DNA of 64,000 nucleotides from an uncultured Planctomycetota bacterium (GTDB lineage: Bacteria > Planctomycetota > Planctomycetia > Gemmatales > Gemmataceae): assembly GCA_963849325.1 (NCBI GenBank), contig CAWKHF010000013.1:1-64000 (forward strand), in the 5' to 3' direction. The notes under the pieces were generated by a model, which was given only the letters and a program-made list of their open reading frames with translations, was not told the DNA's origin and searched no databases. The position numbers were made by a program, and so were the translations under genes. Within the stretch, counting starts at the first letter, position 1. Each line of letters opens with the position of its first letter. Below, piece by piece: positions 5,459 through 17,464 of the stretch.

Positions 5459-5678
5459 GACCGGGCGGAACAAATCGGAGCGGGAGGCGTAGATCCCCGC
5501 TCCGGGAGTTTGGCGCACCGATCCCGAGTCGGTCTTGACTGGCCCGTTCGCCGACGCTATCTGGGGGGTCTCTGCTCCGATAGAACCGAGTTAACCGGCC
5601 CCCTAGGACGGTCCTGGAGTCGAGGGGTTCCAGGATCGGGTTTCGTGCATGGCCGCGGTCACACACGGCGGGGGCATT

Positions 5679-7259
5679 ATGAGCCATTCCGTTGGGACCC
5701 GACGCCCGCGGGCCGTTTCCTGCCGGGCAGCCAAGACGCTGGCCGGCTTCGCCCTGCTGGCCGGCGGTTGCACGACCCTCCAGGAATGGGTGCGGAACAG
5801 TTTCCAAGTCGGCCCGAACTACCAGAAACCTCCGGCAGCCGTCGCCCCGGCGTGGATTGATGCCGCCGACCCCCGCGTCGCCGGCAAGGCTGCGGAAGTC
5901 GATGCCTGGTGGGACGTTTTCCAGGACCCGGTGCTCAATTCCCTGATCGAGACCGCGTACCGCCAGAACCTGGACCTGAAGACCGTGGCGACGCGCGTCC
6001 TGCAAGCCCAGGCGCAGCGGAACATCACGGCCGGCAATCTCTTCCCGCAGTCGCAAAGCGCGCTCGGCGCCTACGCGCACGCCCAAATCAGCAAGAACCT
6101 CGGATTCTTTCCCACCACGCCCCTGGGAGGAGGCTTTCCGACCAACCTTAACCTGTGGGTCACCGGCTTCAACGCTTCCTGGGAACTCGATTTCTGGGGC
6201 CGGCTCCGCCGGGCCATCGAGTCCTCGAATGCGGAGCTAAGTGCCTCGGTCGAAAGCTACCATGACGCCCTGGTCACGCTGCTGGCCGACCTGGCCACCA
6301 ATTACGTGCAAATCCGCACATTCCAGCAGCGGATCGCCTATGCCCGCCGCAACGTCGAGATCCAGCGAGGCTCACTGCGCCTCGCCGAGGCGCGGTTGAA
6401 GCAGGGGAAGGCTACCGCGCTGGACGTGAAGCAGGCCCGCTCCAGCCTGGCCCAGACCGAGTCGTCGATTCCGCCCCTGGTGATCGCCTTGCGGCAGGCC
6501 AACAACCGCCTCTGCGTCTTGCTAGGCCAACCGGCCCAGGACCTCTGTCTCCACGAGGCGCCCATCCCGGCGACGCCCCCGGAAGTGGCGGTGGGTATTC
6601 CCGCCGAACTGCTCCAGCGCCGCCCGGACGTGCGGCGAGCGCTGCGAGAGGCAGCGGCCCAGAGTGCGCAAATCGGCGTGGCCGAAGCGGATTTTTATCC
6701 TCAGATCGGCATGACGGGTTTCATCGGCTATGTGGCGGATGACCTGCGGAGGCTTTTTGCGGCGGACAGTTTTACGGGCCTCATCCTCCCGAATTTCCAG
6801 TGGAAAATCCTGAACTACGGCCGCATCCGCAATAACGTCCGCGCACAGGATGCCCGCTTCCAGGAGAAGGTCTTGCAGTATCAACAAACGGCATTGACGG
6901 CCGGCCGGGAGGTGGAGGACGCCCTCGTGGCGTTCCTCCAGTACCAATTGCAAGCGCGCAGCCTGGAAGAGAGCGTGAAAGAGGCCGAGGATTCCGTGGA
7001 CCTCGTTCAAGCCCAGTACAAGGGAGGACTCGTCGATTTCAACCGTGTGTTCACCACGCAGTCCCAGCTCGTGTCCCAGCAGGATCAGCTGGCGGCCGCC
7101 CGCGGAAACATCGCCACCAGTCTGATCGCGGTCTACCGTGCCCTCGGCGGAGGATGGCAGTCCTTCACGAACGGCCCGGTGCCCCTGGCATGTACGATGC
7201 CTCCCGCGAAGCAAGCGGAAGAGACGGGGGCCGAAGATCAAGCCGCGGATTCGGAATGA
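5679..7259 (+). CDS. NodT/TolC-family outer-membrane efflux lipoprotein
   Basis: Lipobox 'LAGGC', 'VGPNY', 'WELDFWG', 'ELLQRRPDV', 'YRALGGGW'. Start could be 5649. Confidence 0.9.
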   Translation: MSHSVGTRRPRAVSCRAAKTLAGFALLAGGCTTLQEWVRNSFQVGPNYQKPPAAVAPAWIDAADPRVAGKAAEVDAWWDVFQDPVLNSLIETAYRQNLDLKTVATRVLQAQAQRNITAGNLFPQSQSALGAYAHAQISKNLGFFPTTPLGGGFPTNLNLWVTGFNASWELDFWGRLRRAIESSNAELSASVESYHDALVTLLADLATNYVQIRTFQQRIAYARRNVEIQRGSLRLAEARLKQGKATALDVKQARSSLAQTESSIPPLVIALRQANNRLCVLLGQPAQDLCLHEAPIPATPPEVAVGIPAELLQRRPDVRRALREAAAQSAQIGVAEADFYPQIGMTGFIGYVADDLRRLFAADSFTGLILPNFQWKILNYGRIRNNVRAQDARFQEKVLQYQQTALTAGREVEDALVAFLQYQLQARSLEESVKEAEDSVDLVQAQYKGGLVDFNRVFTTQSQLVSQQDQLAAARGNIATSLIAVYRALGGGWQSFTNGPVPLACTMPPAKQAEETGAEDQAADSE

Positions 7260-7336
7260 CCGAGGGCACAGAAGTCCGTCCAGGGTGCGCCAGCCGCCCC
7301 TGTACCAGAGGTTTGGTTAGAGGCACTAACCAAATA

Positions 7337-7402
7337 GGCGAGCGGGGGGCGTAAGCCCCCTGTTGACGGCGACAAACAGGGGGCTTACGCTCCCCGCTCG
7401 CC
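7337..7402. repeat. REP-like long intergenic palindrome
   Basis: GGCGAGCGGGGGGCGTAAGCCCCCTGTT ... AACAGGGGGCTTACGCTCCCCGCTCGCC between convergent genes. Confidence 0.8.
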
Positions 7403-7541
7403 AAACAGTTACCGCTTCTTAGGGTCTGTTTATGGGGTGGCATTTTGGTAGGGATGGGACGCTCGGCGCCGCTGCGCAGTGGTCCTGCATACAGATCGAT
7501 CTTCACCGCATGGAACAGCGGTCCGGACAGCGGTTGGCGAC

Positions 7542-8924
7542 TCAAACGAGTTCCGGCAGCGGGTTGGCGTCCTCCTCGGCCAGGTACTGCGGCCGGCCGG
7601 TGAGGTCCGGCAGCGTCGCCCGGTGGCAGTCGATCCCGAGGTTGTGGTAGAGGGTAGCGAACAACTCGCCCCACGTGACCGGCCGGGCGATCGCCTCTCC
7701 CGCGATCCGGTCGGTCGCCCCGATCACCTGCCCCGTCTTCATCCCGCCGCCGGCCAGCAGCGCACAGTTCACCTGCGGCCAGTGGTCGCGTCCGACCTGG
7801 GCGCTGATCTTCGGCGTCCGTCCGAACTCGCCCATGACCACTACCGTGCAGTCCTCGTCCAACCCCCGCTGGTGAAGGTCCTCGACCAGGGCGCTGACGC
7901 ACTGGTCGAAAACCGGGAAGTCCTCCGCCTCGCGTAAGAAGATGGAGTTGTCGGCGCGGCCCTCGACGTTCTTGCCGCCGTGCCAGTCCCACTTGCTGTA
8001 GTTGAGAGTGACCACCCGCGCCCCGGCCTCGACCAACCGCCGGGCCATCAGCAGGCTCTGGGGCACCCGCGGGGCGCCGTTGCCGTCCATGAACACCTTC
8101 GGGTTCCCGGTCCCGTACCGCTCGATCACGCGCACCGGCTCCTTCGACAGGTCGAGGGCGTCGGCCATGCGGGAGGACGTGAGCAGCCCGAACGCCTGTT
8201 CGGTGAAGGCGTCCATCGCCTTGACCGCGCCGTTGGCGTCGGCGTCGCGGCGCAGGTCGTCGAAGCGCTTGAGGAGCGTCTTGCGGTCGGCGAGGCGATC
8301 GACGGAGAGGCCGCGGAGGAGCATGTCTTCGCGGGTCTTGCCCATCGCGCGGAACGGGGCCATCGACGGTCCGAGGAACCCCGGCCCCGGCTCGTTGTAC
8401 GGGCCGTGGGTGCATGGGTAACACAGGCTGATAAACGGCGGGACGCTCGGATCGACCGGGCCTTGCAGCTTCGCCACCACGGAGCCGAACTGTGGCCACC
8501 CGCCGCTCGGAGTCGGCTTCCTGGGGTGGTGGCCGTTGTAGACCTGAATCGCGTCGTGGTCGGCCTGGTTGCCGACCAGCGAACGAACCACCACGAGCTT
8601 GTCCATGATCCGGGCGAGCCGGGGAAGGGCCTCGCAAATCCGCACCCCGGTGACGTTGGTTGCGGCCGGCTTCCACGGGCCGGCGACTTCCTTGGGGGCG
8701 CCAGGCTTGAGATCGAACAGGTCTTGGTGAGGCGGACCTCCGACCAGATAGATGAGGATGACCGACTTGTGGGACGAGCGGATCCCGGCGGCCGCCTCAG
8801 CCCGCAAGAGACCGGGGAGGGTGAGGCCGCCCAGGCCCAGGGCGCCGATCCGAAGGAAACCGCGGCGGGACAGGTGGTGCGGGACAAAGGGTACGGGAGC
8901 GGTGAGGTCGTGGCATGTCGGCAT
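7542..8924 (-). CDS. DUF1501 domain protein (Tat-type signal)
   Basis: 'SRRGFL', 'GGPPHQDLFDLKP', 'ARRLVEAG', 'GEFGRTP', 'GRDHW'. Confidence 0.9.
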   Translation of the reverse strand: MPTCHDLTAPVPFVPHHLSRRGFLRIGALGLGGLTLPGLLRAEAAAGIRSSHKSVILIYLVGGPPHQDLFDLKPGAPKEVAGPWKPAATNVTGVRICEALPRLARIMDKLVVVRSLVGNQADHDAIQVYNGHHPRKPTPSGGWPQFGSVVAKLQGPVDPSVPPFISLCYPCTHGPYNEPGPGFLGPSMAPFRAMGKTREDMLLRGLSVDRLADRKTLLKRFDDLRRDADANGAVKAMDAFTEQAFGLLTSSRMADALDLSKEPVRVIERYGTGNPKVFMDGNGAPRVPQSLLMARRLVEAGARVVTLNYSKWDWHGGKNVEGRADNSIFLREAEDFPVFDQCVSALVEDLHQRGLDEDCTVVVMGEFGRTPKISAQVGRDHWPQVNCALLAGGGMKTGQVIGATDRIAGEAIARPVTWGELFATLYHNLGIDCHRATLPDLTGRPQYLAEEDANPLPELV

Positions 8925-9309
8925 GGGTAGCCTCGGGAGCTAGGGAACGGCGGGTCTGGGCCGGTGCCGGATGCCGGCCGGTGCGCGGCGAGGTACAGGA
9001 ACTAGTTTCCCCGAGTTTCGCGCCCGGGTCAACGCCTTTGAGTGGATTTCGCTACTCGACACGCCGCTGCCGGCCCTGGCCTTGCAGCTCGCGATTCATG
9101 TAACGCTCTCGCGTTATTCGAAAGGACGGCATCCCCGGCTAAGGTAGCCTACCGAATGGCTCACGTCGCCCCTCGCTCGCCTTAAGTTTGCAAATAATCT
9201 TTGAAGCTTCGGCGGGACGATGCTAGGATGGGAGTGACTCGAAGCCTGCCCCTGCCGAACCTCCCGCGATGAGTTGCTCCCCACCGCGAGTACACCTGAG
9301 GGCGGAACG

Positions 9310-10779
9310 ATGAATCTTCGATCCCCCGGGTCCATCTTGATCGTCTCCTGCTACGAGTTGGGGCATCAACCGCTCGGGGTGGCCCTGCCCCTGGCGTTTC
9401 TGGAACGAGCCGGTTTCGCGCCGGATGCGTTGGACATCTCGGTGCAGGACTTCGACGAGGCCAAGGTCGCGCAGGCACGCCTGGTCGCTATCTCGGTCCC
9501 CATGCACACGGCCCTGCGCCTGGGCGTCCGCGTCGCCGAGCGCGTCCGGCAGCTTAATCCGGCCGCGGCGGTTTGTTTCTATGGACTGTACGCGGCCCTG
9601 AACGCCGACTATCTCCTCGAACACGGCGGCGACTACTGCATCGGCGGCGAATGCGAGACGCCGTTGGTCGCCCTCGCCGAAGCACTGGATGCCGGACGAA
9701 TCGGCGCCGTCGAGGGAGTCTATCAGCGCGGCCAAGCGGCTCAACCGTTTCTGCAGCGGCTGCCGTTCCCGCTGCCGGTCCGCTCGCCGCTGCCGCCGCT
9801 CGAAAAGTATGCTCGCCTCGAACACAAGGGCGAAAGCCGAGTGGTCGGCTACGTCGAGGCGAGCCGCGGCTGCCGTCACCTGTGTACGCATTGCCCGATC
9901 CCGCCCGTCTACGGCGGACGGTTCTTCATCATTCCGCGGGACGTCGTCCTGGAAGACATTCGCCGCCACGTCCGCGCGGGGGCCACGCACATCACGTTTG
10001 GCGATCCCGACTTCCTCAACGGTCCGGGACACTCCCTGAAGATCGTCCGCGCCCTGCACGCGGAGTTCCCCGAGCTGACTTTTGATTTCACTGCCAAGAT
10101 CGAGCACGTCTTGAAGCATCCCGAGGTGTTCCCCGAGTTGGGCGCCTCGGGCTGCCTGTTCATGGTCTCCGCGGTGGAGTCGCTCAGCGAGCGCGTGCTC
10201 ACGGTGCTGGAGAAGAACCACACGAGGGCGGACATCGAGAAGGCGCTGAAGATTGTCCATGCGGCCGGCATCGCGCTGCGGCCCACCTGGGTCGCCTTCA
10301 CGCCCTGGACCACCCTCGAGGACTATCGGGAAGTGCTGGAGTTCATCGAGGCGAATGGGCTGATCGACCACGTGGACCCCGTGCAGTACACTATCCGCTT
10401 GCTGGTCCCACCGGGTTCCTATCTGGCGGAGCGCCCCGCCATGCGGCCGTACCTGGGCCCGCTGGACGAAGCGGCGTTCAGCTACCACTGGGACCACCCC
10501 GACCCGCGCATGGACCGGCTGCAAAAAGCGGTCAGCAAGCTAGTCGAGGCGGACGCGACGTCGGGCGCGGACCCGGCCGATACCTTCTACCGCGTGCGCG
10601 ATCTGGCGGCCGGACGGAAGCCGAACGGTGTTGTGCATCCGCTGCCTCGGGATCGCATGAGAGCACCGCGGTTGAGTGAACCGTGGTTCTGCTGAGCGGA
10701 GCCGACCGAGGGTCAGTTGGACCCACTGCACAGCTCCAAAGCGATACTGCCCGTTGTCCCGATGCTGCCCACCGTTTAG
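9310..10779 (+). CDS. B12-binding-domain radical SAM (seleno)protein with CUAEP tail; in-frame TGA at 10693-10695 read as Sec
   Basis: CxxxCxxC motif 'CRHLCTHC'. After 'EPWFC' the TGA is followed in frame by AEPTEGQLDPLHSSKAILPVVPMLPTV to TAG 10777-10779, giving the C-U-A-E-P tail of the CUAEP/CCAEP family. Confidence 0.85.
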
Positions 10780-10794
10780 AAAGACTAACGCTCG

Positions 10795-11493
10795 ATGAAC
10801 ACGGCCCAGCAACTGCAAGACCTTCTTCAACTCCAGACGGCCCCGGTCGCGCTGGCCTTTCAGGACGCGCCACCGGCCCATCTTCCCCGCATGGCCGCGG
10901 CCGCGCCCTCCGGCTGCACGTTTTGGAAGCGTGCCGCCGCGGGGCAAGCCTTCTACACCGAAGTATCCGACCACTACAACTGCCCCATCGGGGCCTACAC
11001 CCACGGCGTCGATTTGCCGCCGGCGCAGGCGAAGGAGTTGCAAGACGTCGTGGAAACGATGATCCAGCTGGGCTATCTCCGGCCGGAAGAAGTTCCCGGC
11101 ATTCCACGCCGGCAGAGCAAGCTCGGCGTCGCTCTCTACGCGCCGCTGGCGACGGCGCCGTTCGAGCCGGAGGTCGTCCTCGTGTGCGGCAACGCCAAGC
11201 AGATCATGCTGCTGACGGAGGCGGCGCAAGCCGCCGGCGTCGGCGCCGAGGCGCCGCTGATGGGACGTCCCACCTGTGCGGCGGTCCCGACGGTCCTGCA
11301 AACCCAGCGCAGCGCGGCCAGTCTCGGCTGCATCGGCAACCGCGTTTACACCGAGATGGCCGATGACGAACTGTACTTCGCCCTGCCCGGCGGCCAACTC
11401 GGCCGAGTGGTGGAGAAGTTGGCAACGATCGTCAACGCGAACCGCGAGCTGGAGAAGTACCATCGTGCGAAACGAGCAACCCTAGGCGTTTGA
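10795..11493 (+). CDS. DUF169-family Cys-rich protein
   Basis: 'PVAL', 'GCTFW', 'CPIG', 'PTCAAVP', 'SLGCIGNR', 'DDEL' pattern. Confidence 0.75.
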   Translation: MNTAQQLQDLLQLQTAPVALAFQDAPPAHLPRMAAAAPSGCTFWKRAAAGQAFYTEVSDHYNCPIGAYTHGVDLPPAQAKELQDVVETMIQLGYLRPEEVPGIPRRQSKLGVALYAPLATAPFEPEVVLVCGNAKQIMLLTEAAQAAGVGAEAPLMGRPTCAAVPTVLQTQRSAASLGCIGNRVYTEMADDELYFALPGGQLGRVVEKLATIVNANRELEKYHRAKRATLGV

Positions 11494-11521
11494 CCCGATC
11501 CCCGGGAGAGGAGCCATTCTC

Positions 11522-12133
11522 ATGCAACACAGAATGTGGGCGGCCGCTCTGGGCCTGGTGTTTGGCGTCGCGCTGCCCGCCAGCGCCGAGATCATCAAGG
11601 GCCGCCTGGCCATCCGCGGCGCCGAAATGAGCTGATGAGGCGGGATGGCGTGTGACGCCATCGCACGTCAGTATGACGTGGACGCGGATTCGACGAAGCT
11701 CAATCGGCCCCAAGAACAAAAGGGCGGCTATCAGTTCGGCACCATCGAGTTTGTCGCCAAGAAGGGCAAGTCGATTGACCTGGACAAGATCCACGAGTCG
11801 ATCGCCGCCACGCGCCTGTCGGGCGGCACCAACATGCGCATGGATTACCTGGAAATCACGGCCAAAGGCGAGGTGATCGAGCGGGACAAGCAGCTGGTCT
11901 TGAAGGTGTCCGGCACGGGACAGGAATTCGTGCTGATCGAGGAACCCACGGCGAAGGACGCCCTGAAGCGTCTGCGCGAGGCCGTGGCGCGGGGGGACAA
12001 GGTGTCCACGGTCACGGGCCGCGTTCCCGGCTGGAACGGTCGTTTTCCCGATGTCCTGGCGGCGTGGGCGAAGACCCCCGACAGTCAGAAACGGAAGCTC
12101 GCGGTGGTGGATTTCAAGGTCGAGACGAAGTAA
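11522..12133 (+). CDS. Secreted HMA-like protein with tandem in-frame TGA-TGA (11633-11638); putative UU selenoprotein, 203 aa
   Basis: RBS GGAGAGGAG. The reading MQHRMWAAALGLVFGVALPASA-EIIKGRLAIRGAEMS-U-U-GGMACDAIA is continuous with ORF 11645-12133, and the signal peptide is present only upstream of the TGAs. Confidence 0.7.
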
Positions 12134-12157
12134 AGAACTGTCCCGCAATGACTTCCC

Positions 12158-12224
12158 CGTTTAGCCGCGACGCGCAGCGGAGCGCGGGCAGTGCCCGCGC
12201 TCCGCTGCGCGTCGCGGCTAAACG
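12158..12224. repeat. Perfect palindrome, family A copy 1 (33-bp arms)
   Basis: CGTTTAGCCGCGACGCGCAGCGGAGCGCGGGCA-G-TGCCCGCGCTCCGCTGCGCGTCGCGGCTAAACG. Confidence 0.9.
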
Positions 12225-12261
12225 AAGTTATTGCTGGACGCGTCCAATTAGAAAGACAACG

Positions 12262-12549
12262 ATGAGAGACCAGCTACGCAGCTTGTCCGGCGCTCTGCTC
12301 GCCGTGGCGGGCGCGGCGCCGACCTGAACGACGGCGGGGTTCCTGGCCCTGCTCGGGTTAGCGGGGAGCGCCACGGCCCGACTGGTGACCCACTGGCTTG
12401 CGCCGGTCCTGATCGGCCTGTCGGTGTTGTTCCTGCTGCGCTCGTTTTACATCCTGTACGTGCGGCGGCGCGGCACGCGGGTCAGCGCCGTCATTACCTG
12501 GATTTCGGCGGTCTTCGTTCTCGGCTTCTGGACCTGGCAGCTGATGTAG
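12262..12549 (+). CDS. MerT/MerF-like 3-TM membrane protein with in-frame TGA (12325-12327); putative selenoprotein, 95 aa
   Basis: MRDQLRSLSGALLAVAGAAPT-U-TTAGFLALLGLAGSATARLVTHWLAPVLIGLSVLFLLRSFYILYVRRRGTRVSAVITWISAVFVLGFWTWQLM. U lies at the end of TM1, where MerT/MerF have the Cys pair. Absent as a full-length ORF from the track. Confidence 0.75.
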
Positions 12550-12559
12550 AGGAGTTCCC

Positions 12560-13423
12560 GTGAACGCGCTTCGCATTGTGGGCTGCCTGTTGGCATCGTG
12601 CCTAATCGCCCAGGGATCCGCGCGCGGCCAGGACGCCGCCAAGGAGATCACCAACTCCATCGGGATGAAGCTGGTCCTGATTCCCGCGGGCAAGTTCGTC
12701 ATGGGTTCGCCGGCCGGCGAAGCCGAGCGCGACGCCGGTGAAGATCCGCACGAGGTCGTCCTCACGCGGCCGTTCTACCTCGGCGTCTACCCGGTCACGC
12801 AGGGCCAGTTCCAGAAAGTGATGGGCAAGAACCCGTCGTTCTTCCATCCGAAGAACGGCGGCAGTCTGGACCACCCGGCCGATCAGGTGCGGTGGGGCGA
12901 CGCCCGCGAGTTTTGCACGAAGCTCTCGGCGCTTGCCGAGGAGAAGAAGGCGGGCCGGACCTACCGCCTGCCGTCCGAGGCCGAATGGGAGTACGCCTGC
13001 CGCGCCGGCACCACCACGCCCTTCAACGTCGGCGACGCGCTCTCCTCCAAGCAGGCGAACTTCAACGGCAACTTCCCCTACGGCCGCGCTCCGAAAGGGT
13101 CTTTCTTGCGCCGGACGGTGAAGGTCGGCTCGTACCCGCCGAACGCCTGGGGCCTGTACGACATGCACGGCAACGTCTTGCAGTGGTGCAATGACTGGTA
13201 CGACCCGGATTACTACCAGAAGAGTCCCAGGGAAAATCCGAAGGGGCCGGACAAGGGCGTGGTTGCGACCGGCTTCCGGAGCGATTTCTTCGTGGTGGTC
13301 CGCGGCGGTTGCTGGCTGGACGAAGGTCGGGCCTGCCGTTCGGCCCGCCGTTTTCGGCTGCAGCAGAGTGAGCCTTATCGCTGGACCGGCTTTCGCGTGG
13401 CGTGCGACGTGGCCGGCAAGTGA
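12560..13423 (+). CDS. FGE-sulfatase (SUMF1) domain secreted protein
   Basis: 'NSIGMKLVLIPAGKFVMGS', 'RLPSEAEWEYACRAG', 'NAWGLYDMHGNV', 'GFRV'. RBS overlaps the upstream stop. Confidence 0.9.
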   Translation: MNALRIVGCLLASCLIAQGSARGQDAAKEITNSIGMKLVLIPAGKFVMGSPAGEAERDAGEDPHEVVLTRPFYLGVYPVTQGQFQKVMGKNPSFFHPKNGGSLDHPADQVRWGDAREFCTKLSALAEEKKAGRTYRLPSEAEWEYACRAGTTTPFNVGDALSSKQANFNGNFPYGRAPKGSFLRRTVKVGSYPPNAWGLYDMHGNVLQWCNDWYDPDYYQKSPRENPKGPDKGVVATGFRSDFFVVVRGGCWLDEGRACRSARRFRLQQSEPYRWTGFRVACDVAGK

Positions 13424-13444
13424 CAATCCGGCACATACCAGGAG

Positions 13445-13551
13445 AACCACGGATAACACGGATAAGAAAAGCAGAGAAAGCCGTATCCAGCCGGCACACC
13501 CTTGTTTCATCGGTATCATTAATATCCGCGTTATCCGTGTTATCCGTGGTT
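13445..13551. repeat. Inverted 9-mer tandem element, family B copy 1
   Basis: AACCACGGATAACACGGATAA ... TTATCCGTGTTATCCGTGGTT. Confidence 0.85.
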
Positions 13552-13573
13552 GAAGACCTTTGAGGGCGGTCCC

Positions 13574-13888
13574 ATGAAAAACGAGCTTCGCAGTGTGTCG
13601 GCCGCGATCATGAGCGTGCTTGCCGCGCTGCCGTGGTGAGCCATCACCTGAATGGTCCTTAATGGGACTTCAGCCCTGCTCGGGTTAGCGGGGAGCGTCA
13701 CAGCAACCGCCGTCAGCGGCTGGATTGCCCCAGTCCTGGTATGCGCTTCGATCGTCCTGATTGGACGGTCGTTCTACGTCATTTACGTGCGCGGCATTCG
13801 CACGCGAGCGACCGTCGTAATTGCATGGTCCGCTCTGGTGTTCATCATCGGCTTCTGGACGTGGCAGCTGACGATGGGCAGAGGGTGA
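13574..13888 (+). CDS. Second MerT/MerF-like membrane protein with two in-frame TGAs (13637, 13649; UxxxU)
   Basis: MKNELRSVSAAIMSVLAALPW-U-AIT-U-MVLNGTSALLGLAGS... is in frame with ORF 13652-13888. It is a clear paralog of 12262-12549 on both sides of the TGAs. Confidence 0.75.
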
Positions 13889-13918
13889 CCGCTTCCGCGT
13901 GGGTTTACGAGGTATTCT

Positions 13919-14302
13919 ATGTTCGGGCGAACGGGCGTGGCGTGGGTGCTGGCGGCCTCGGCGTTCTGGCTGTCCGCTTGCGGTCGGGTACACAAGCCGG
14001 AGAAGAGCTTACCGGCGGAGACGAAGGCGGAGTCTCCCGCCGCTGTGCAGCGGATCACGTTGCACGTGCCGGGCATGATCGACCGCCAGGGCATCACCTG
14101 ACTTACCTGAAAGAACGTCGTTCAAGAAGCCCTGTTAGGGCTTCCAGGCATCGAGAAGGTCGACGTCGATCTGAAAAAAGACCTGCTCCACGTTCGTTAC
14201 GATCCGGCCAAGGTGACACCAGAGCAGATGCTCCAGGAGATTGACAAGCTCGGGTACGAAGGGAAGATCCTTGCGGACGGCGACACCGCGTCCAAGCCTT
14301 GA
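13919..14302 (+). CDS. MerP/CopZ-like HMA lipoprotein with UxxU (TGA 14099, 14108), 127 aa
   Basis: Lipobox 'LSAC'. ITLHVPGM...GIT-U-LT-U-KNVVQEALLGLPGIEKVDVDLKKDLLHVRYDPAKVTPEQMLQEIDKLGYEG is a full HMA pattern only if both TGAs are read through. Confidence 0.85.
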
Positions 14303-14337
14303 GCGGTTCTCCCGCGACCAAGAGGGAGGTTTCGCCG

Positions 14338-14649
14338 ATGCGTGTACTGTTTCGATCCATCCTGGGAATGTTTATGGCCGACCGAGGTCCATCGGACAGC
14401 CCGCCGTCCCCCGCGGATGTGGTCGCCCACGTTCCGGGCCTGACCTGACCGCGCGGCTGACCGGATCGGGTGCGGAAAGCACTCGGTACTCTACCGTGGG
14501 TAGAGCAAGGCACGATTCAGATGAACTTCAAGGCCCGCGAGCTGAGGTTTTGCCTGAAAGACAAGAGCCAATGCGACGACGAGGCGCTCAAGAAGGCGCT
14601 CAAGGCCGAGGGGTTTCCGGACGTCCAGGTCCAAACCGGGCCGTCGTGA
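14338..14649 (+). CDS. HMA-domain protein with UxxxU (TGA 14446, 14458), 103 aa
   Basis: RBS GGGAGG. ...VVAHVPGLT-U-PRG-U-PDRVRKALGTLPWVEQGTIQMNFKARELRFCLKDKSQCDDEALKKALKAEGF. Absent from the ORF track. Confidence 0.8.
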
Positions 14650-14694
14650 CCACGTGGGGCCACGGTCCCGATACCGTAATCAAGGAGAGCATTG

Positions 14695-16077
14695 ATGTCC
14701 GCAATCCGCAGCGGCGCTTCCGTTGCACTCGGGCCGCAAGAACTGGGTCCGCCCGTGAACGTGGCGGAAGCCCCGGCCGCGACGCTCCGGGAGATCGTTC
14801 GCCGGCACGGGACGCCGACTTATGCCTACGATTTGCAGCGCATCCGCACGCAGGTGGACCGGCTGCGCGAATCCCTTCCGCGGCAGGTGGAGCTGTTCTA
14901 TTCGCTCAAGGCCAACCCCTCTTTAGGACTCTGCGGCTTCCTGGCGGACTGCGGCCTGGGAGCGGACGTCGCCTCGGCGGCCGAATTGGTGACGGCCCGC
15001 GAAGCGGGATTTGCCGCGCAGCGTCTCCTGGTGACCGGACCGGATCGTTCGTCCGCCTTGCTGGCCGAGCTGCGTTCCGTCCCCGAGGCGATCCTGTCCA
15101 TTGATTCGCTCAGCGAATTGCAGCAACTCGCCGGCCTGGGGCTGTCCCACCGCGCGCTGCTGCGTCTGCGGCCAGACTTCCCTTGCCAGGCGGTCTGCAC
15201 GGCCGGCCCGGACTCTCGTTTCGGCCTCCTTTTCGACGAGCTGGAACGCTGCCGGGAACACATCGGCCCCGGCGGCATCCGCGTCATCGGCTTCCATATC
15301 TTCGCGGGCTCGCAGGTGCTCGATGCCGCCGCCGTGGTCCAGCACCTGCGCGGCGCCCTGGACGAGTCGCTCCGCGCCGCCGAAGTGCTCGGCCTGGCTC
15401 CGGAGGTCATCGACCTGGGCGGCGGCTTCGGCGTCCCCTACGCGCCGGGAGAGCCTGAGCTGGATCTGGACCCCATCCGCGCAGCGCTGCACGCCATCGT
15501 CCAGGGGGCGCCGCAGAGCCGTATCTTCATGGAGCTGGGCCGGTACTTGGTGGCGCAGTCCGGCTGGTATCTGACCTCGGTGCTTGCGCTGCAACGGCAG
15601 GCCGGCCGCAAGGCGGTCGTGGTGGACGGCGGCACTCACCAACGAGGCGACATGTGCGGCATCGGTCTGCGCCACAAGGCGACCCCGGTATCTCTCGCGG
15701 ATCGGCCCGGTCCCGTCAGCCCGACGGATGTTCTCGGCTGCCTGAGCCATCCGGGGGACGTGTTGGCCGAGGCTTATCCGCTGCCGCCGCTGGCACCGGG
15801 CGACGTCGTGGCCTTTCCCAACGCCGGGGCTTACGGGCTGTGCGCCTCTCCCTGGTCCTTCAACGGACATCCCATCGCCGCCGAGGTGGTTTTCGATGGG
15901 GAGCGAATCGAAACCATCCGTTCGCGCCCGCCGACCCGTGCCGTCCTGGAGGGTCAGGTCCGCCTTCGCCCGGCGGAACCTTCGATCGCAAACGGCGAAG
16001 CGGCGCTGGAGCATTATACCGAGCTGAAAACCGTGACTGTTCAGCTGAGCCATACCGCCGCCGCACCCAAGGGTTGA
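14695..16077 (+). CDS. PLP-dependent fold-type III decarboxylase (LysA/ODC family)
   Basis: 'HGTPTYAYD', 'YSLKANP', 'DVASAAE', 'SRFG', 'GFHIFAGSQ', 'DLGGGFG', 'ELGRYLV', 'AGAYG'. Confidence 0.88.
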   Translation: MSAIRSGASVALGPQELGPPVNVAEAPAATLREIVRRHGTPTYAYDLQRIRTQVDRLRESLPRQVELFYSLKANPSLGLCGFLADCGLGADVASAAELVTAREAGFAAQRLLVTGPDRSSALLAELRSVPEAILSIDSLSELQQLAGLGLSHRALLRLRPDFPCQAVCTAGPDSRFGLLFDELERCREHIGPGGIRVIGFHIFAGSQVLDAAAVVQHLRGALDESLRAAEVLGLAPEVIDLGGGFGVPYAPGEPELDLDPIRAALHAIVQGAPQSRIFMELGRYLVAQSGWYLTSVLALQRQAGRKAVVVDGGTHQRGDMCGIGLRHKATPVSLADRPGPVSPTDVLGCLSHPGDVLAEAYPLPPLAPGDVVAFPNAGAYGLCASPWSFNGHPIAAEVVFDGERIETIRSRPPTRAVLEGQVRLRPAEPSIANGEAALEHYTELKTVTVQLSHTAAAPKG

Positions 16078-16107
16078 CGTTAAGGAGCCGTCCAACAACA
16101 AGTTCCC

Positions 16108-16172
16108 CGTTTAGCCGCGACGCGCAGCGGAGCGCGTCGGCCCCGCGCTCCGCTGCGCGTCGCGGCTAAACG
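16108..16172. repeat. Palindrome family A copy 2
   Basis: CGTTTAGCCGCGACGCGCAGCGGAGCGCG ... CGCGCTCCGCTGCGCGTCGCGGCTAAACG between convergent genes. Confidence 0.9.
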
Positions 16173-16201
16173 AAGTTATTTGTGGACGCGCCCTTATCCT
16201 C

Positions 16202-17329
16202 TCAGCCCAGGAGCTTTTCCAGCTGCGGATAAGCCAGCTGGCCGCTCCACTCATGGCCGCCCTCGAAGCGATCAACGAGCAGCCGATCCTTGGCGTCCAG
16301 CGCCGCATAGACGCGGCGCATGCGCGTCAGGGCGTCGTCCGCCCGGCGCGGCTCGATCAGTCCATCGCGCGAGCCGACCTCCCAGACCGCCGGCCGCGGC
16401 GCAATCAGTCCGCCAATCTCCGGCACGTCGCCATACTGGAGCAGGCCGGGGATGACCTGGGCGCCGCAGCTATAAGGCCCGGCGATGCGTTCCTGCATGA
16501 CGTTGAGGGCGCCGGAAACAACGGCGATACGGATGCGCGGCTCCAGGGCGGCGGTGAGCATGGCCATGCGTCCGCCGTAGGACAGGCCGACGCAGCCGAG
16601 ACGCTCGGCGTCTACGCGCGGGTGCCGGGCGAGCAGTTCCAGCGTCCACAGGCAATCGCGGAGGTTCTCGGCGATCAGCAGTTTGCCTAGCAGTTGCAAG
16701 CGGATGAAGGTGATGGCGCACGCATCCTGCTTGCCGTAGGCGTCGCGCGGACCCAGGCGATCGCCGAACGGCGTCAGACACGGCACCGCCACGACGTAGC
16801 CGCGACGGACCAGCTGCCGGCCGTAATCGTACTGGCAGTTCCGGATCGCCTGGGCGACGCCCGGCAGATCGTCGCGGCCGGCGACCGGGTGATGGCCGAA
16901 GGGTCCGTGTCCGTGGATCGCCAGCACGCCGGGACGCGGCTTGTCGGACTGGCCGCGCGGCAGCAACAGGTACAGCGGCAGCGACGGATGTCCCTCGCAC
17001 TCCAACCGCAACTGCTCGCGGCGATGGTCGTCCAGATCGACGGATTGCCGGACCACCGTTTTCCACTTCGCCGGCGGCGCATGGGGACCGAGCAGGGAGC
17101 GCAGCTTGGCGGCGAACTCGGCTTGCCACTTGTGGCCGTCCTCGGCCGTGCGGCCACGAAACTTCATCGCCAGTGGCGCCTTGTCCGCTTGCTGGCGAAT
17201 CCATTCGTCGGTGTCGCCGCGGCGAGGACTTTCCGCGGCATTCCCACGTGGAAGTGACGGCGCCGCCAGCACGGCGGACGCCCCCAACAGAAAGCGACGA
17301 CGGGAACGGTTCGTGTTGCGCTGGGCCAT
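16202..17329 (-). CDS. Tat-exported alpha/beta hydrolase
   Basis: 'SRRRFL' signal, 'HGHG', nucleophile elbow 'GLSYGG', 'GGHEW'. Confidence 0.85.
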   Translation of the reverse strand: MAQRNTNRSRRRFLLGASAVLAAPSLPRGNAAESPRRGDTDEWIRQQADKAPLAMKFRGRTAEDGHKWQAEFAAKLRSLLGPHAPPAKWKTVVRQSVDLDDHRREQLRLECEGHPSLPLYLLLPRGQSDKPRPGVLAIHGHGPFGHHPVAGRDDLPGVAQAIRNCQYDYGRQLVRRGYVVAVPCLTPFGDRLGPRDAYGKQDACAITFIRLQLLGKLLIAENLRDCLWTLELLARHPRVDAERLGCVGLSYGGRMAMLTAALEPRIRIAVVSGALNVMQERIAGPYSCGAQVIPGLLQYGDVPEIGGLIAPRPAVWEVGSRDGLIEPRRADDALTRMRRVYAALDAKDRLLVDRFEGGHEWSGQLAYPQLEKLLG

Positions 17330-17464
17330 GATTTCCTTCTCCGGGTGTTTCGCTTGCAACCGATTGTACACCGGCGAGCCGGCGGCGTCCGCCGGCCGCC
17401 TGTGTTGACGCCGCCCGAAGCCGCCCCTATCCTCTCTCCATCCCTTCCCGGATGGAGAGAGCCG

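What the first reader, a model, noticed from the sequence alone, without database searches (positions are those of the whole stretch)
10681..10779. Radical SAM enzyme ends in a C-U-A-E-P tail
Seen: the called stop after 'EPWFC' is followed in frame by AEPTEGQL... to TAG 10777. A hairpin GGGTC-AGTTG-GACCC starts about 14 nt after the TGA. Established (from memory of family definitions): CUAEP/CCAEP-tail B12-domain radical SAM proteins are a named, functionally uncharacterised family related to ArsL, the arsinothricin enzyme that uses a Cys-rich tail to hold As(III). Inference: the vicinal Cys-Sec pair binds the metal(loid) substrate. This gene is the best independent anchor for reading the neighbouring TGAs as Sec.
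Basis: partly seen in the sequence, partly recalled or inferred. Interest (0 to 1): 0.8.

Follow-up and report, generated by a model that had tools for sequence, protein, structure and literature searches.

The report
Selenocysteine-tailed ArsL-like radical SAM enzyme
This gene encodes a named but uncharacterised radical SAM enzyme whose apparent stop codon is really selenocysteine, and its relatives and neighbours suggest it builds an unusual metal- or metalloid-bearing amino acid.

Summary
ORF ATG 9310 reaches TGC-TGA at 10690-10695 ('...EPWFC-stop') and continues in frame as AEPTEGQL... to TAG 10777-10779, giving 489 aa.

The read-through product scores 704 bits (cut-off 500) on NCBIfam NF040546, 'CUAEP/CCAEP-tail radical SAM (seleno)protein'. 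The alignment runs through the tail.

The genome has tRNA-Sec (UCA), SelA, SelB and SelD, though selA and selB look frameshifted in this assembly.

Among 84 homologous loci with a readable tail, 66 have TGA and 18 have a Cys codon at this position. All continue as [A/S/V]EP.

The hairpin 14 nt after the TGA covaries. It is present (5 or more bp) in 55 of 66 TGA forms and in 0 of 17 Cys forms. So TGA 10693 is selenocysteine.

The closest characterised relative is ArsL: 40% identity and 348 bits, below its cut-off of 450. ArsL's CCxxC tail holds As(III). This protein is not ArsL.

Conserved partners are a DUF169 protein, an Nfu-type Fe-S carrier and an L-amino-acid-ligase ATP-grasp. A homologous ATP-grasp also sits in ArsL clusters.

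Best reading, which is inferred: ArsL-like transfer of SAM's aminocarboxypropyl group to a soft metal(loid) held by the Cys-Sec pair.

The family is already known, its function is open, and the substrate is unknown.

The parts
9310..10779 (+). CDS of the CUAEP-tail B12-domain/radical SAM selenoprotein (489 aa, Sec462), stop codon included
   Evidence: Translation with TGA=U. NF040546 scores 704 bits against a cut-off of 500, over residues 9-471. It is the only copy in the genome and is read through 1 TGA.
9340..9675 (+). N-terminal B12-binding-like (Rossmann) domain, residues 11-122
   Evidence: Pfam PF02310, 36.8 bits. The model's best fold matches are AprD4, TsrM and OxsB. Cobalamin binding itself was not testable.
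9856..10278 (+). Radical SAM core, residues 183-323
   Evidence: Pfam PF04055, 49 bits.
9871..9894 (+). CxxxCxxC motif for the [4Fe-4S] cluster (Cys188, Cys192, Cys195)
   Evidence: Read from the sequence. Invariant in 41 of 41 aligned family members.
10690..10704 (+). Tail motif Cys461-Sec462-Ala-Glu-Pro
   Evidence: C461, position 462, E464 and P465 are invariant in alignment A2. The motif occurs in all 84 loci with a readable tail.
10693..10695 (+). UGA read as selenocysteine (codon 462)
   Evidence: 66 homologous loci have TGA here and 18 have TGC/TGT. The genome holds tRNA-Sec, SelA, SelB and SelD.
10710..10724 (+). SECIS core hairpin: 5-bp stem GGGUC/GACCC with loop AGUUG
   Evidence: Covariation on 65 distinct sequences. 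Pair 21-29 is CG 22, GC 16, UA 12; 0 of 500 shuffles reach the score. Five or more contiguous pairs occur in 55 of 66 TGA forms and 0 of 17 Cys forms.
10698..10737 (+). Possible lower stem extending the SECIS (GGAGC/GCUCC)
   Evidence: Single-sequence fold only, -16.3 kcal/mol, z -1.05. Not supported by covariation.
10777..10779 (+). True stop codon TAG
10795..11493 (+). DUF169 gene, 16 nt downstream; the most frequent immediate neighbour in this clade
   Evidence: Pfam PF02596, 104 bits. A homolog lies in 31 of 83 family loci. Four Cys are invariant or nearly so. No clear fold match.
11522..16077 (+). Downstream gene set kept with the rSAM-DUF169 pair in two other Planctomycetota loci (L033, L037). 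It comprises a secreted protein with adjacent Sec-Sec (11522-12133), MerT-like selenoproteins (12262-12549, 13574-13888), an FGE-like protein (12560-13423), HMA/MerP-like UxxU proteins (13919-14302, 14338-14649) and a PLP-dependent decarboxylase (14692-16077).
   Evidence: Family scans. tblastn to L033 and L037 with the stop pairs conserved. Linkage to the rSAM rests on synteny in 3 related loci only.

Best explanation
Shown:
- Gene 9310-10779 encodes a genuine member of NCBIfam NF040546, the CUAEP/CCAEP-tail B12-domain radical SAM family.
- UGA 10693 is decoded as selenocysteine by SelB and tRNA-Sec, directed by the hairpin 14 nt downstream.
- Translation then runs 27 codons further to UAG 10777.

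Inferred, by homology with ArsL and from gene context:
- The enzyme reductively cleaves SAM at its [4Fe-4S] cluster (Cys188/192/195).
[quoted passage not shown] That substrate is held by the invariant vicinal Cys461-Sec462 pair on a C-terminal arm.
- The product is an element-carbon-bonded alpha-amino acid.
- That amino acid is then processed by an L-amino-acid-ligase-type ATP-grasp in most lineages, or by the PLP decarboxylase in this window. It is exported by an MFS or other transporter.
- The Nfu-type protein services the Fe-S cluster. DUF169, which is rich in cysteine, is a candidate substrate or cluster chaperone.

The substrate is probably not the three-coordinate As(OH)3 that ArsL uses. 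Only two chalcogen ligands are invariant, and no arsenic genes accompany the family.

My odds:
- Family membership: 0.98.
- Sec recoding: 0.95.
- ArsL-like ACP transfer to a tail-bound soft element: about 0.45.
For: Membership:
- 704 bits against a cut-off of 500, with the alignment running through the tail.

Sec machinery in the genome:
- tRNA-Sec at 72 bits with anticodon TCA.
- SelB 313.7, SelA 286.7 and SelD 386.9 bits, all over their cut-offs.

Recoding:
- In the regex count, 66 loci have TGA and 17 a Cys codon. L083, with CCVEP, makes an 18th Cys form.
- All 9 matches found in 401 genomes of the phylum are read through 1 TGA.
- At least 4-5 Sec/Cys switches are needed on a quick tree of 81 rows.

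SECIS:
- 77.4% of cells are paired, against 67.7% in shuffles.
- 64 cells are changed on both sides, against 27.7 in shuffles; 0 of 500 shuffles reach this.
- The hairpin is found in 55 of 66 TGA forms and 0 of 17 Cys forms.
- The Cys forms still keep AEPTxxQ. The extension therefore matters as protein, not only as a host for the RNA element.

Likeness to ArsL:
- 348 bits on NF040542 over profile positions 1-409 of 423.
- 40% identity over 414 aa, E 3e-103, to an RCCLKC-tail protein beside arsM and ArsN1.
- ArsL makes an ACP radical or organometallic species. Removing or mutating its CCxxC tail abolishes As(III) binding and product formation but not SAM cleavage (bioRxiv 10.1101/2024.02.01.577332 passages; 10.64898/2026.04.29.721666 abstract and section 6).

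Context pointing to an amino-acid product:
- An LAL-type ATP-grasp (ATP-grasp_4 + LAL_C2) lies in 34 of 83 family loci, spread over 7 phylum-level labels.
- A homologous ATP-grasp (26% identity over 368 aa, E 1e-20; same Pfam architecture) lies 3-5 kb from the rSAM in 3 of 3 ArsL-family plasmid clusters examined.
- A PLP decarboxylase is kept in the window, L033 and L037.
- Nfu-type genes lie in 32 of 83 loci, mostly directly downstream.
- DUF169 lies in 31 of 83 loci.

Tail:
- AF2 places residues 451-460 at pLDDT 88 and 461-470 at 69. The arm is modelled as docked rather than disordered up to about residue 474.
Against: - No biochemical datum exists for any family member in the library searched.
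- What makes ArsL form ACP rather than 5'-deoxyadenosyl radicals is not known from sequence. The chemistry is therefore not readable from this protein.
- The ArsL tail (three Cys, about 12 residues after the conserved HPDPR motif) and this tail (Cys-Sec, about 50 residues later) do not align. They may not be equivalent.
- I could not get model coordinates, so the distance from the tail to the cluster is unmeasured.
- Context is patchy. 29 of the 59 loci with 2.5 kb or more downstream have neither DUF169 nor the ligase in that stretch.
- Many loci are close kin, for example 14 Poribacteria.
- No close ligase homolog was found in this genome, which is 84.69% complete (best 26.6 bits).
- The selA match is split over three reading frames and selB over two. 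One 1-nt gap lies inside a conserved SelA stretch.
- I read these as assembly indels, because a penicillin-acylase-like gene in the window is split the same way. A decaying Sec system in this organism is not excluded.
Confidence: 0.5

Rival explanations
1. Redox arm. The vicinal Cys-Sec pair cycles as a selenenylsulfide on a flexible C-terminal arm, like the Gly-Cys-Sec-Gly tail of animal thioredoxin reductase (recalled). It would deliver or remove electrons, or resolve an enzyme-product adduct, rather than hold the substrate.
For: - Sec/Cys interchange at one position, with 4-5 switches on the tree, is typical of redox-active residues.
- Only two chalcogens are invariant in the tail.
- The arm follows a long linker, and confidence falls from residue 461 on.
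- A dedicated Nfu protein in 32 of 83 loci would also fit an enzyme whose cluster chemistry needs repair or reduction.
Against: - The nearest characterised homolog uses its Cys tail to bind substrate.
- In this window the cluster is surrounded by metal-handling selenoproteins, MerT-like and HMA UxxU, not by redoxins.
- Haft's preprint groups CU motifs with heavy-metal chemistry in HgcA and MerB-like proteins.
Confidence: 0.2
2. Ordinary class-B chemistry. The enzyme is a cobalamin-dependent radical SAM methyltransferase or another 5'-dA-radical enzyme acting on an organic substrate such as an amino acid or peptide. The tail would then ligate an auxiliary metal or cluster.
For: - B12-binding domain hit, 36.8 bits.
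- Best fold matches include the cobalamin enzymes TsrM, OxsB, TokK and CysS.
- Weak hits to many B12-rSAM methylase models.
Against: - Those hits score 16-46 bits, against 348 bits for ArsL.
- The top fold match, AprD4, has the same N-domain; that it carries no cobalamin is recalled.
- The 2024 ArsL paper text holds no mention of B12 or cobalamin (0 occurrences).
- The shared ATP-grasp partner links the family functionally to ArsL clusters.
Confidence: 0.15
3. Still arsenic. The two-ligand Cys-Sec tail binds methylarsenite, or another two-coordinate As(III) species. ACP transfer would then give arsinothricin directly, without a following ArsM step.
For: - Homology to ArsL.
- Two thiolates suffice for methylarsenite in other arsenic proteins (recalled).
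- ATP-grasp and MFS partners occur as in ArsL clusters.
Against: - I saw no arsenic-specific family (ArsM, ArsR, ACR3, ArsC, ArsD/A, ArsN1, MIP) among the 108 ORFs scanned from 12 family loci, nor among the window's neighbours.
- All 3 ArsL-family clusters examined are embedded in such genes.
Confidence: 0.1
4. TGA 10693 is a real stop and the protein ends at Cys461. The downstream conservation would be non-coding or coincidental.
For: - Gene callers end the homologs there.
- selA and selB look frameshifted in this assembly.
- Single-sequence fold statistics are not significant.
Against: - The amino-acid motif is conserved in frame after the TGA in 66 loci and continues uninterrupted in 18 Cys-codon forms.
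- The curated profile includes the tail.
- The hairpin covaries and occurs only with TGA.
Confidence: 0.03

Closest known systems
NCBIfam NF040546, CUAEP/CCAEP-tail radical SAM (seleno)protein
   Same: Full-length profile match above the curated cut-off, covering the tail motif, the domain order and the Sec/Cys position. Homologs at 76-79% identity carry this name in NCBI records. A Sec-form member exists in the cultured Thermomicrobium roseum DSM 5159.
   Different: Nothing in the defining features differs. The downstream set of MerT-like, HMA UxxU and Sec-Sec selenoproteins is seen only in this window and two related Planctomycetota loci.
ArsL, arsinothricin biosynthesis radical SAM enzyme (NF040542, RCCLKC-tail family)
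   Same: Same two-domain architecture. 40% identity over 414 aa. Cysteine-type residues sit on a C-terminal tail. The gene is linked to a homologous LAL-type ATP-grasp and to transporters.
   Different: - Score 348 bits, below the cut-off of 450.
- The tail is C-U-A-E-P plus a conserved TxxQ, about 50 residues further from the core. ArsL instead has R-C-C-L-K-C at the very end.
- Two invariant chalcogens instead of three.
- No arsM or other ars genes nearby.
Dph2 (diphthamide synthesis), the other ACP-radical-forming [4Fe-4S]/SAM enzyme
   Same: Only the proposed chemistry, by way of ArsL (passage read).
   Different: Per that passage, Dph2 lacks the CxxxCxxC motif and modifies a protein histidine. 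No homology to it was tested here.
C-terminal vicinal-cysteine arm of mercuric reductase MerA, and the Gly-Cys-Sec-Gly arm of thioredoxin reductase (both recalled, not tested)
   Same: A vicinal Cys-Cys or Cys-Sec pair on a mobile C-terminal arm that hands a soft metal or electrons to a buried active site. In this window MerT-like and MerP-like proteins lie beside the gene.
   Different: Unrelated folds (flavoprotein disulfide reductases). The likeness is one of working principle only.
CU-motif selenoproteins of organometallic biochemistry (HgcA, MerB-like SAO proteins) in Haft's 2022 preprint
   Same: The rare Cys-Sec dipeptide. The preprint lists NF040546 beside them and argues for heavy-metal interaction.
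   Different: Different protein families. The preprint gives no function for NF040546.

Membership tests
NF040546 CUAEP/CCAEP-tail radical SAM (seleno)protein | Whole-protein score at or above the curated cut-off (500 bits) | tested here: met
   704 bits, E 7.9e-212, profile positions 1-467 of 468. 697.6 bits in the six-frame genome search, read through 1 TGA.
NF040546 CUAEP/CCAEP-tail radical SAM (seleno)protein | C-(U/C)-A-E-P motif near the C-terminus | tested here: met
   Residues 461-465 are C-U-A-E-P. The motif is conserved in 84 loci.
NF040546 CUAEP/CCAEP-tail radical SAM (seleno)protein | B12-binding-like N-domain plus radical SAM core with CxxxCxxC | tested here: met
   PF02310 and PF04055. 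Cys188/192/195 are invariant.
Bacterial selenoprotein (Sec recoding) | Genome encodes tRNA-Sec, SelA, SelB and SelD | tested here: met
   All four are found above their cut-offs. Caveat: selA and selB are split over frames in this assembly.
Bacterial selenoprotein (Sec recoding) | Hairpin (SECIS) shortly downstream of the UGA, supported by covariation; Cys-codon homologs exist at the same position | tested here: met
   The usual spacing and loop-G rule for bacterial SECIS is recalled, not tested. No Rfam family matches.
ArsL (NF040542, equivalog) | Score at or above the curated cut-off (450 bits) | tested here: not met
   348 bits.
ArsL (NF040542, equivalog) | C-terminal R-C-C-L-K-C motif with three As(III)-binding cysteines | tested here: not met
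   The tail here is EPWFCUAEPT. An ArsL-family member ends in KRCCLKC.
ArsL (NF040542, equivalog) | Arsenic gene context (arsM, arsQ-type permease, ars regulators or resistance genes) | tested here: not met
   None among the window's neighbours 5649-17371, nor among 108 ORFs of 12 family loci. Present in 3 of 3 ArsL-family plasmid loci examined.
ArsL (NF040542, equivalog) | SAM cleaved at the C-gamma-S bond to give an ACP species and methylthioadenosine | not testable with these tools
   Needs an enzyme assay.
Class B (cobalamin-dependent) radical SAM enzymes | Binds cobalamin in the N-terminal Rossmann domain | not testable with these tools
   The domain is present. The fold is nearest AprD4, then TsrM and OxsB. 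Cofactor binding cannot be read from this.

The most novel reading that the evidence does not exclude
The rSAM, Nfu, DUF169 and L-amino-acid-ligase cassette is a widespread, unrecognised pathway that forges a carbon-element bond other than C-As. The element could be Se, Te, Sb, Bi or Hg. ACP chemistry would act on a substrate clamped by Cys-Sec, giving a new class of organo-element amino acids or dipeptide antimetabolites.

In this window the substrate would be brought in by a dedicated selenoprotein relay, analogous to MerP-MerT-MerA hand-over. The relay comprises a secreted Sec-Sec protein, HMA UxxU lipoproteins and MerT-like membrane proteins. The product would then be decarboxylated to an aminopropyl-element compound.
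Probability: 0.25. Interest if true: 0.85.

Novelty: new member of a known kind. Interest (0 to 1): 0.5.

Why it matters
- The family is large. At least 593 genome stretches encode relatives, and all 8000 scored metagenome candidates passed E 1e-20.
- It spans soil, groundwater, sponge-symbiont and marine phyla.
- Protein databases routinely cut it off at the Sec codon, so its most telling residue is missing.
- Its only characterised relative performs a very unusual reaction: C-As bond formation by a non-canonical SAM cleavage.
- If the Cys-Sec-tailed family does the same with another element, it would open new organometal(loid) natural products and a new use of selenocysteine, as a substrate clamp.
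- The analysis yields a testable package. It names the partner genes (Nfu, DUF169, LAL ligase, MFS). It identifies natural Cys forms that can be expressed without Sec machinery. It also points to a cultured host, Thermomicrobium roseum DSM 5159.
- For this window, the gene firmly anchors the reading of the neighbouring TGA codons as selenocysteine.

Tried and rejected
- Single-sequence folding of the region after the TGA is not significant (z -0.54 and -1.05).
- Rfam gave no hit at gathering thresholds for the whole window. With E up to 10 on 10660-10800 it gave only two chance hits.
- ARAGORN found no tRNA in the window.
Whether the two proteins bind is untested.
- The AF2 model's coordinates are not readable from the script box. 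I could not measure how near the tail lies to the cluster.
- DUF169 has no PDB sequence relative (best E 0.054). Foldseek gave no match at E 0.001 or better. The best VIA-align Z was 5.9, within the noise stated by the tool. Its fold therefore gives no functional lead. Papers mention DUF169 only in passing (listing; single passages).
- The PDB holds no ArsL-like structure by sequence; the best hit is AprD4 at E 3.9e-07.
- A close homolog of the ligase was not found in this genome (best 26.6 bits; genome 84.69% complete).
- Sequencing runs: 1 run held 0.06 of the sampled words of the selA/selB stretch. Its contigs laid only as short fragments of relatives. None bridges the apparent frameshifts, so the frameshift question stays open.
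- The careful tree did not finish, so I used the quick tree (SH-aLRT only).
- I built no joint phylogeny with ArsL and outgroups.
- My first tail script timed out. My tail regex missed L083 (CCVEP), which I found by eye.
- I considered the MerT/HMA link as a family-wide feature and rejected it. It occurs in 3 of 83 loci only.
Full report
**1. The observation**

The ORF starts at ATG 9310 and reaches TGC 10690-10692 and TGA 10693-10695 ('...LSEPWFC', 461 codons). It then continues in frame as AEPTEGQLDPLHSSKAILPVVPMLPTV to TAG 10777-10779. That gives 489 residues with U at 462, exactly as reported.

GGGTC-AGTTG-GACCC lies at 10710-10724, 14 nt after the TGA.

Taken alone this proves little. Folding energies of the region are ordinary for its composition (z -0.54 and -1.05). 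An open stretch of 27 codons is unremarkable in G+C-rich DNA.

**2. Family**

- The read-through product (P0001, with U passed on as C) scores 704 bits on NCBIfam NF040546, 'CUAEP/CCAEP-tail radical SAM (seleno)protein' (curated cut-off 500). It aligns from profile position 1 to 467 of 468, so through the tail.
- The next model is ArsL (NF040542) at 348 bits, below its cut-off of 450. That alignment covers only profile positions 1-409 of 423, so without the tail.
- Pfam finds B12-binding (residues 11-122) and Radical_SAM (183-323).
- The CxxxCxxC cysteines are 188, 192 and 195 (nt 9871-9894).
- The gene is the only copy in the 8.16-Mb, 14-contig genome.
- The best database proteins are 71-94% identical. 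The named ones carry the family name and 'Gemmataceae' or 'Planctomycetes' labels. They cover only 89-94% of the query. 3 of 3 that I fetched end in ...EPWFC, so gene callers stop at the TGA.

**3. Is the TGA selenocysteine?**

Machinery in the genome:
- tRNA-Sec at 72 bits (cut-off 47), with anticodon TCA by ARAGORN.
- SelB 313.7 bits, SelA 286.7 bits and SelD 386.9 bits, all over their cut-offs.

Homologous DNA:
- In a sample of 401 genomes of the same phylum, 9 (this one included) have a match over the cut-off. All 9 are read through exactly one TGA.
- A scan of one genome per species found at least 593 stretches encoding relatives. The best 80 were kept.
- Across the window and 88 loci, my pattern found the tail in 83: 66 with TGA and 17 with a Cys codon (11 TGC, 6 TGT).
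- Of the 6 without a tail, L083 proved on inspection to be a Cys form with CCVEP. The other 5 end at a contig edge before the tail (coordinates).
- The consensus is E-x-W-F/Y-C-[U/C]-[A/S]-E-P-T-x-x-Q-[F/L].
- In a 41-sequence alignment, W459, C461, position 462, E464 and P465 are invariant, and F460, A463, T466 and Q469 are at 90% or more. I gave 41 of 81 eligible sequences, because with all of them was too large to print.
- Cys forms are mostly Nitrospirota (12-13). There are two in Acidobacteriota, one in Bacteroidota and one in Chloroflexota (the labels are mine, taken from record titles).
- A quick ML tree of 81 rows (2 of 83 left out for length; SH-aLRT only) needs 5 Sec/Cys changes, at least 4 of them forced by well-supported branches. 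It puts the window in an all-Sec clade of 22 Planctomycetota and Poribacteria rows.

**4. The hairpin**

- I aligned 65 distinct 51-nt stretches starting at the TGA. 4 of the 5 pairs show compensatory changes.
- For a 7-pair version, 77.4% of cells pair, against 67.7% in shuffles. 64 cells are changed on both sides, against 27.7 in shuffles. 0 of 500 shuffles reach the observed values, and every slid register is worse, at 60% or less.
- Pair 21-29 is CG in 22 sequences, GC in 16 and UA in 12. The 12 'CC' cases are Rokubacteria-type sequences that pair one register over, with a 4-nt loop.
- The decisive control is this. Five or more contiguous pairs in either register occur in 55 of 66 TGA forms and in 0 of 17 Cys forms, where the maximum is 3. 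Yet the Cys forms keep the same amino-acid motif.
- The hairpin is therefore an RNA feature tied to the TGA, which makes it a SECIS. The conserved peptide after it is a protein feature.

Caveat on the Sec machinery:
- The selA match is split over three reading frames and selB over two.
- One break is a 1-nt gap inside a conserved SelA stretch (the motif is recalled).
- A penicillin-acylase-like gene in the window is split in the same way. I therefore read these as assembly indels.
- Public reads could not settle it.

**5. What it resembles**

- No structure of an ArsL-type enzyme is in the PDB by sequence.
- The AF2 model built on 41 sequences has pLDDT 92.2 and pTM 0.91. The tail is modelled with moderate confidence: residues 451-460 at 88, 461-470 at 69, and 475-489 below 50.
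- The model is nearest AprD4 (E 3.4e-19, TM 0.65), then TsrM and OxsB.
- On plasmids, tblastn found 37 records. One is the Thermomicrobium roseum DSM 5159 megaplasmid (55.6% identity, annotated with the family name). Its annotated CDS stops at the TGA, and its tail reads ESWFCUAEPLEDPSGP.
- One of these, from Alicyclobacillus, is 40% identical over 414 aa (E 3e-103). It ends in ...KRCCLKC and sits beside arsM, an MFS transporter, ArsN1 and an ATP-grasp gene.

From the ArsL papers:
- ArsL cleaves SAM to methylthioadenosine and an ACP radical.
- Deleting the RCCLKC tail leaves SAM cleavage intact but abolishes product formation (passages read).
- Intact-protein MS shows As bound by the three tail cysteines.
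- An Fe-C(gamma) organometallic species is proposed (abstract and section 6).

**6. Context**

In the window the gene is followed, after 16 nt, by a DUF169 gene (10795-11493). Then come:
- a secreted protein with two adjacent in-frame TGAs;
- two MerT-like small membrane proteins with in-frame TGAs;
- an FGE-like protein;
- two HMA/MerP-like proteins with UxxU-type pairs;
- a PLP-dependent decarboxylase.

This set recurs with the rSAM-DUF169 pair in two other Planctomycetota loci (L033, L037), with the stop pairs conserved. It recurs nowhere else among 83 loci.

Family-wide I clustered ORFs around 83 loci. Only 59 of them have 2.5 kb or more downstream. The results were:
- An ATP-grasp in 34 loci, over 7 taxon labels. 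In all 5 members scanned, its Pfam architecture is that of L-amino acid ligases (ATP-grasp_4 + LAL_C2).
- A DUF169 protein in 31 loci, over 6 labels.
- An Nfu-type Fe-S carrier (Nfu_N + NifU) in 32 loci, over 7 labels, mostly starting 30-600 nt after the tail.
- 55 of 83 loci have DUF169 or the ligase.
- Four loci (L047, L056, L073, L097) have all three partners.
- MFS transporters, SDRs and aminotransferases recur in particular lineages.
- Many loci are close kin, so these counts overstate independence.
- 29 of the 59 long loci have neither DUF169 nor the ligase within 2.5 kb downstream.

The most telling point concerns the ligase. In 3 of 3 ArsL-family plasmid clusters that I opened, an ATP-grasp gene lies 3-5 kb from the rSAM. 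It has the same Pfam architecture. The Alicyclobacillus copy is homologous to the ligase of CUAEP loci (26% identity over 368 aa, E 1e-20). Those clusters are full of arsenic genes: arsM, ArsR, ACR3, ArsC, ArsD/A, ArsN1 and a MIP channel. I saw none of these among the 108 ORFs of 12 CUAEP loci or among the window's neighbours.

**7. Mechanism**

- Shown: membership, Sec recoding, the SECIS, homology to ArsL, and the partner genes.
- Inferred: the enzyme works like ArsL. That means ACP transfer from SAM to a thiophilic element presented by the C-terminal arm.
- Amino-acid-processing partners (ligase, decarboxylase, aminotransferase), exporters and an Fe-S carrier fit an amino-acid product.
- Two invariant chalcogens instead of three, one of them selenium, argue for a substrate other than As(OH)3. 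So do the absence of ars genes and, in this window, the MerT/MerP-like selenoprotein set.
- Which element is the substrate, I cannot tell.
- Rivals are a TrxR-like redox arm, ordinary cobalamin-type chemistry on an organic substrate, a methylarsenite substrate, and a true stop.

**8. Novelty**

- The family, its tail and its selenoprotein nature are already curated (NF040546). They are mentioned in print as uncharacterised. Searches for 'CUAEP', 'CCAEP', and ACP with radical SAM and selenocysteine found no functional study. bioRxiv supplements were closed and may hold more.
- This gene is one more member of that family.
- New here are:
  - the covariation test of the SECIS against natural Cys forms;
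  - the partner set (Nfu, DUF169, LAL ligase);
  - the ligase shared with ArsL clusters;
  - the contrast in arsenic context;
  - the local link to metal-handling selenoproteins.

Noticed in passing
window 11522-12133 (+), TGAs at 11633 and 11636: A secreted protein of no known family has two adjacent in-frame TGA codons ('GAEMS-U-U-GGMAC'). The pair is kept as two adjacent stops in the L033 and L037 homologs ('GAEMH**GG'). An 8-bp hairpin follows it. A vicinal Sec-Sec pair would be very unusual.
   Followed up: partly
window 12262-12549 and 13574-13888 (+): Two small membrane proteins resemble MerT only weakly (NF033560 at 29.4 and 27 bits against a cut-off of 130). They have in-frame TGAs in the first helix ('APTUTTAG' and 'LPWUAITUMVL'). 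Each TGA is followed by a hairpin.
   Followed up: partly
window 13919-14302 and 14338-14649 (+): A lipoprotein-like HMA domain protein carries 'GITULTUKN'. It scores 63 bits on NF041115, the UxxU metal-binding selenoprotein model, below the cut-off of 95. The UxxU is conserved in L037. A second, weaker HMA/MerP-like protein carries 'GLTUPRGUP'.
   Followed up: partly
G000 contig 12, about 1294100-1297500 (locus L014): selA is matched in three reading frames and selB in two, which are apparent frameshifts. One is a 1-nt gap inside a conserved SelA stretch. This could be assembly indels or decay of the Sec machinery. Public reads did not resolve it.
   Followed up: partly
window 17345-18436 and 18240-19790 (+): A penicillin-acylase-like gene appears split into two overlapping frames. 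This is consistent with indel errors in the assembly.
   Followed up: no
L113 (Thermomicrobium roseum DSM 5159 plasmid NC_011961.1), locus 7956-9470: A cultured organism carries a Sec-form family member. Its annotated CDS ends at the TGA, and the tail ESWFCUAEPLEDPSGP follows. Its neighbours are a PLP aminotransferase, an MFS transporter and a GNAT-ABC fusion protein.
   Followed up: partly
L114, L115, L116 (Bacillota plasmids): RCCLKC-tail (ArsL-family) genes lie near a gene pair encoding a carboxymuconolactone-decarboxylase-family protein and an LAL-type ATP-grasp, in 3 of 3 clusters opened. This hints that arsinothricin-type amino acids are further ligated in these bacteria. The passages of the ArsL papers that I read do not mention this.
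   Followed up: partly
L083, L055, L096: Record labels disagree with sequence affinity. L083 ('Enterobacteriaceae') has a Nitrospira-type tail. L055 ('Clostridia') groups with Blastocatellia. L096 ('Nitrosotalea', an archaeon) groups with a Dormibacterota row beside Rokubacteria. Binning errors are likely.
   Followed up: no
window 7545-8924 (-) and 5649-7259 (+): Upstream lie a DUF1501 protein (279 bits) on the opposite strand and a NodT-type outer-membrane efflux subunit (331 bits). No link to the rSAM gene was seen in other loci.
   Followed up: no
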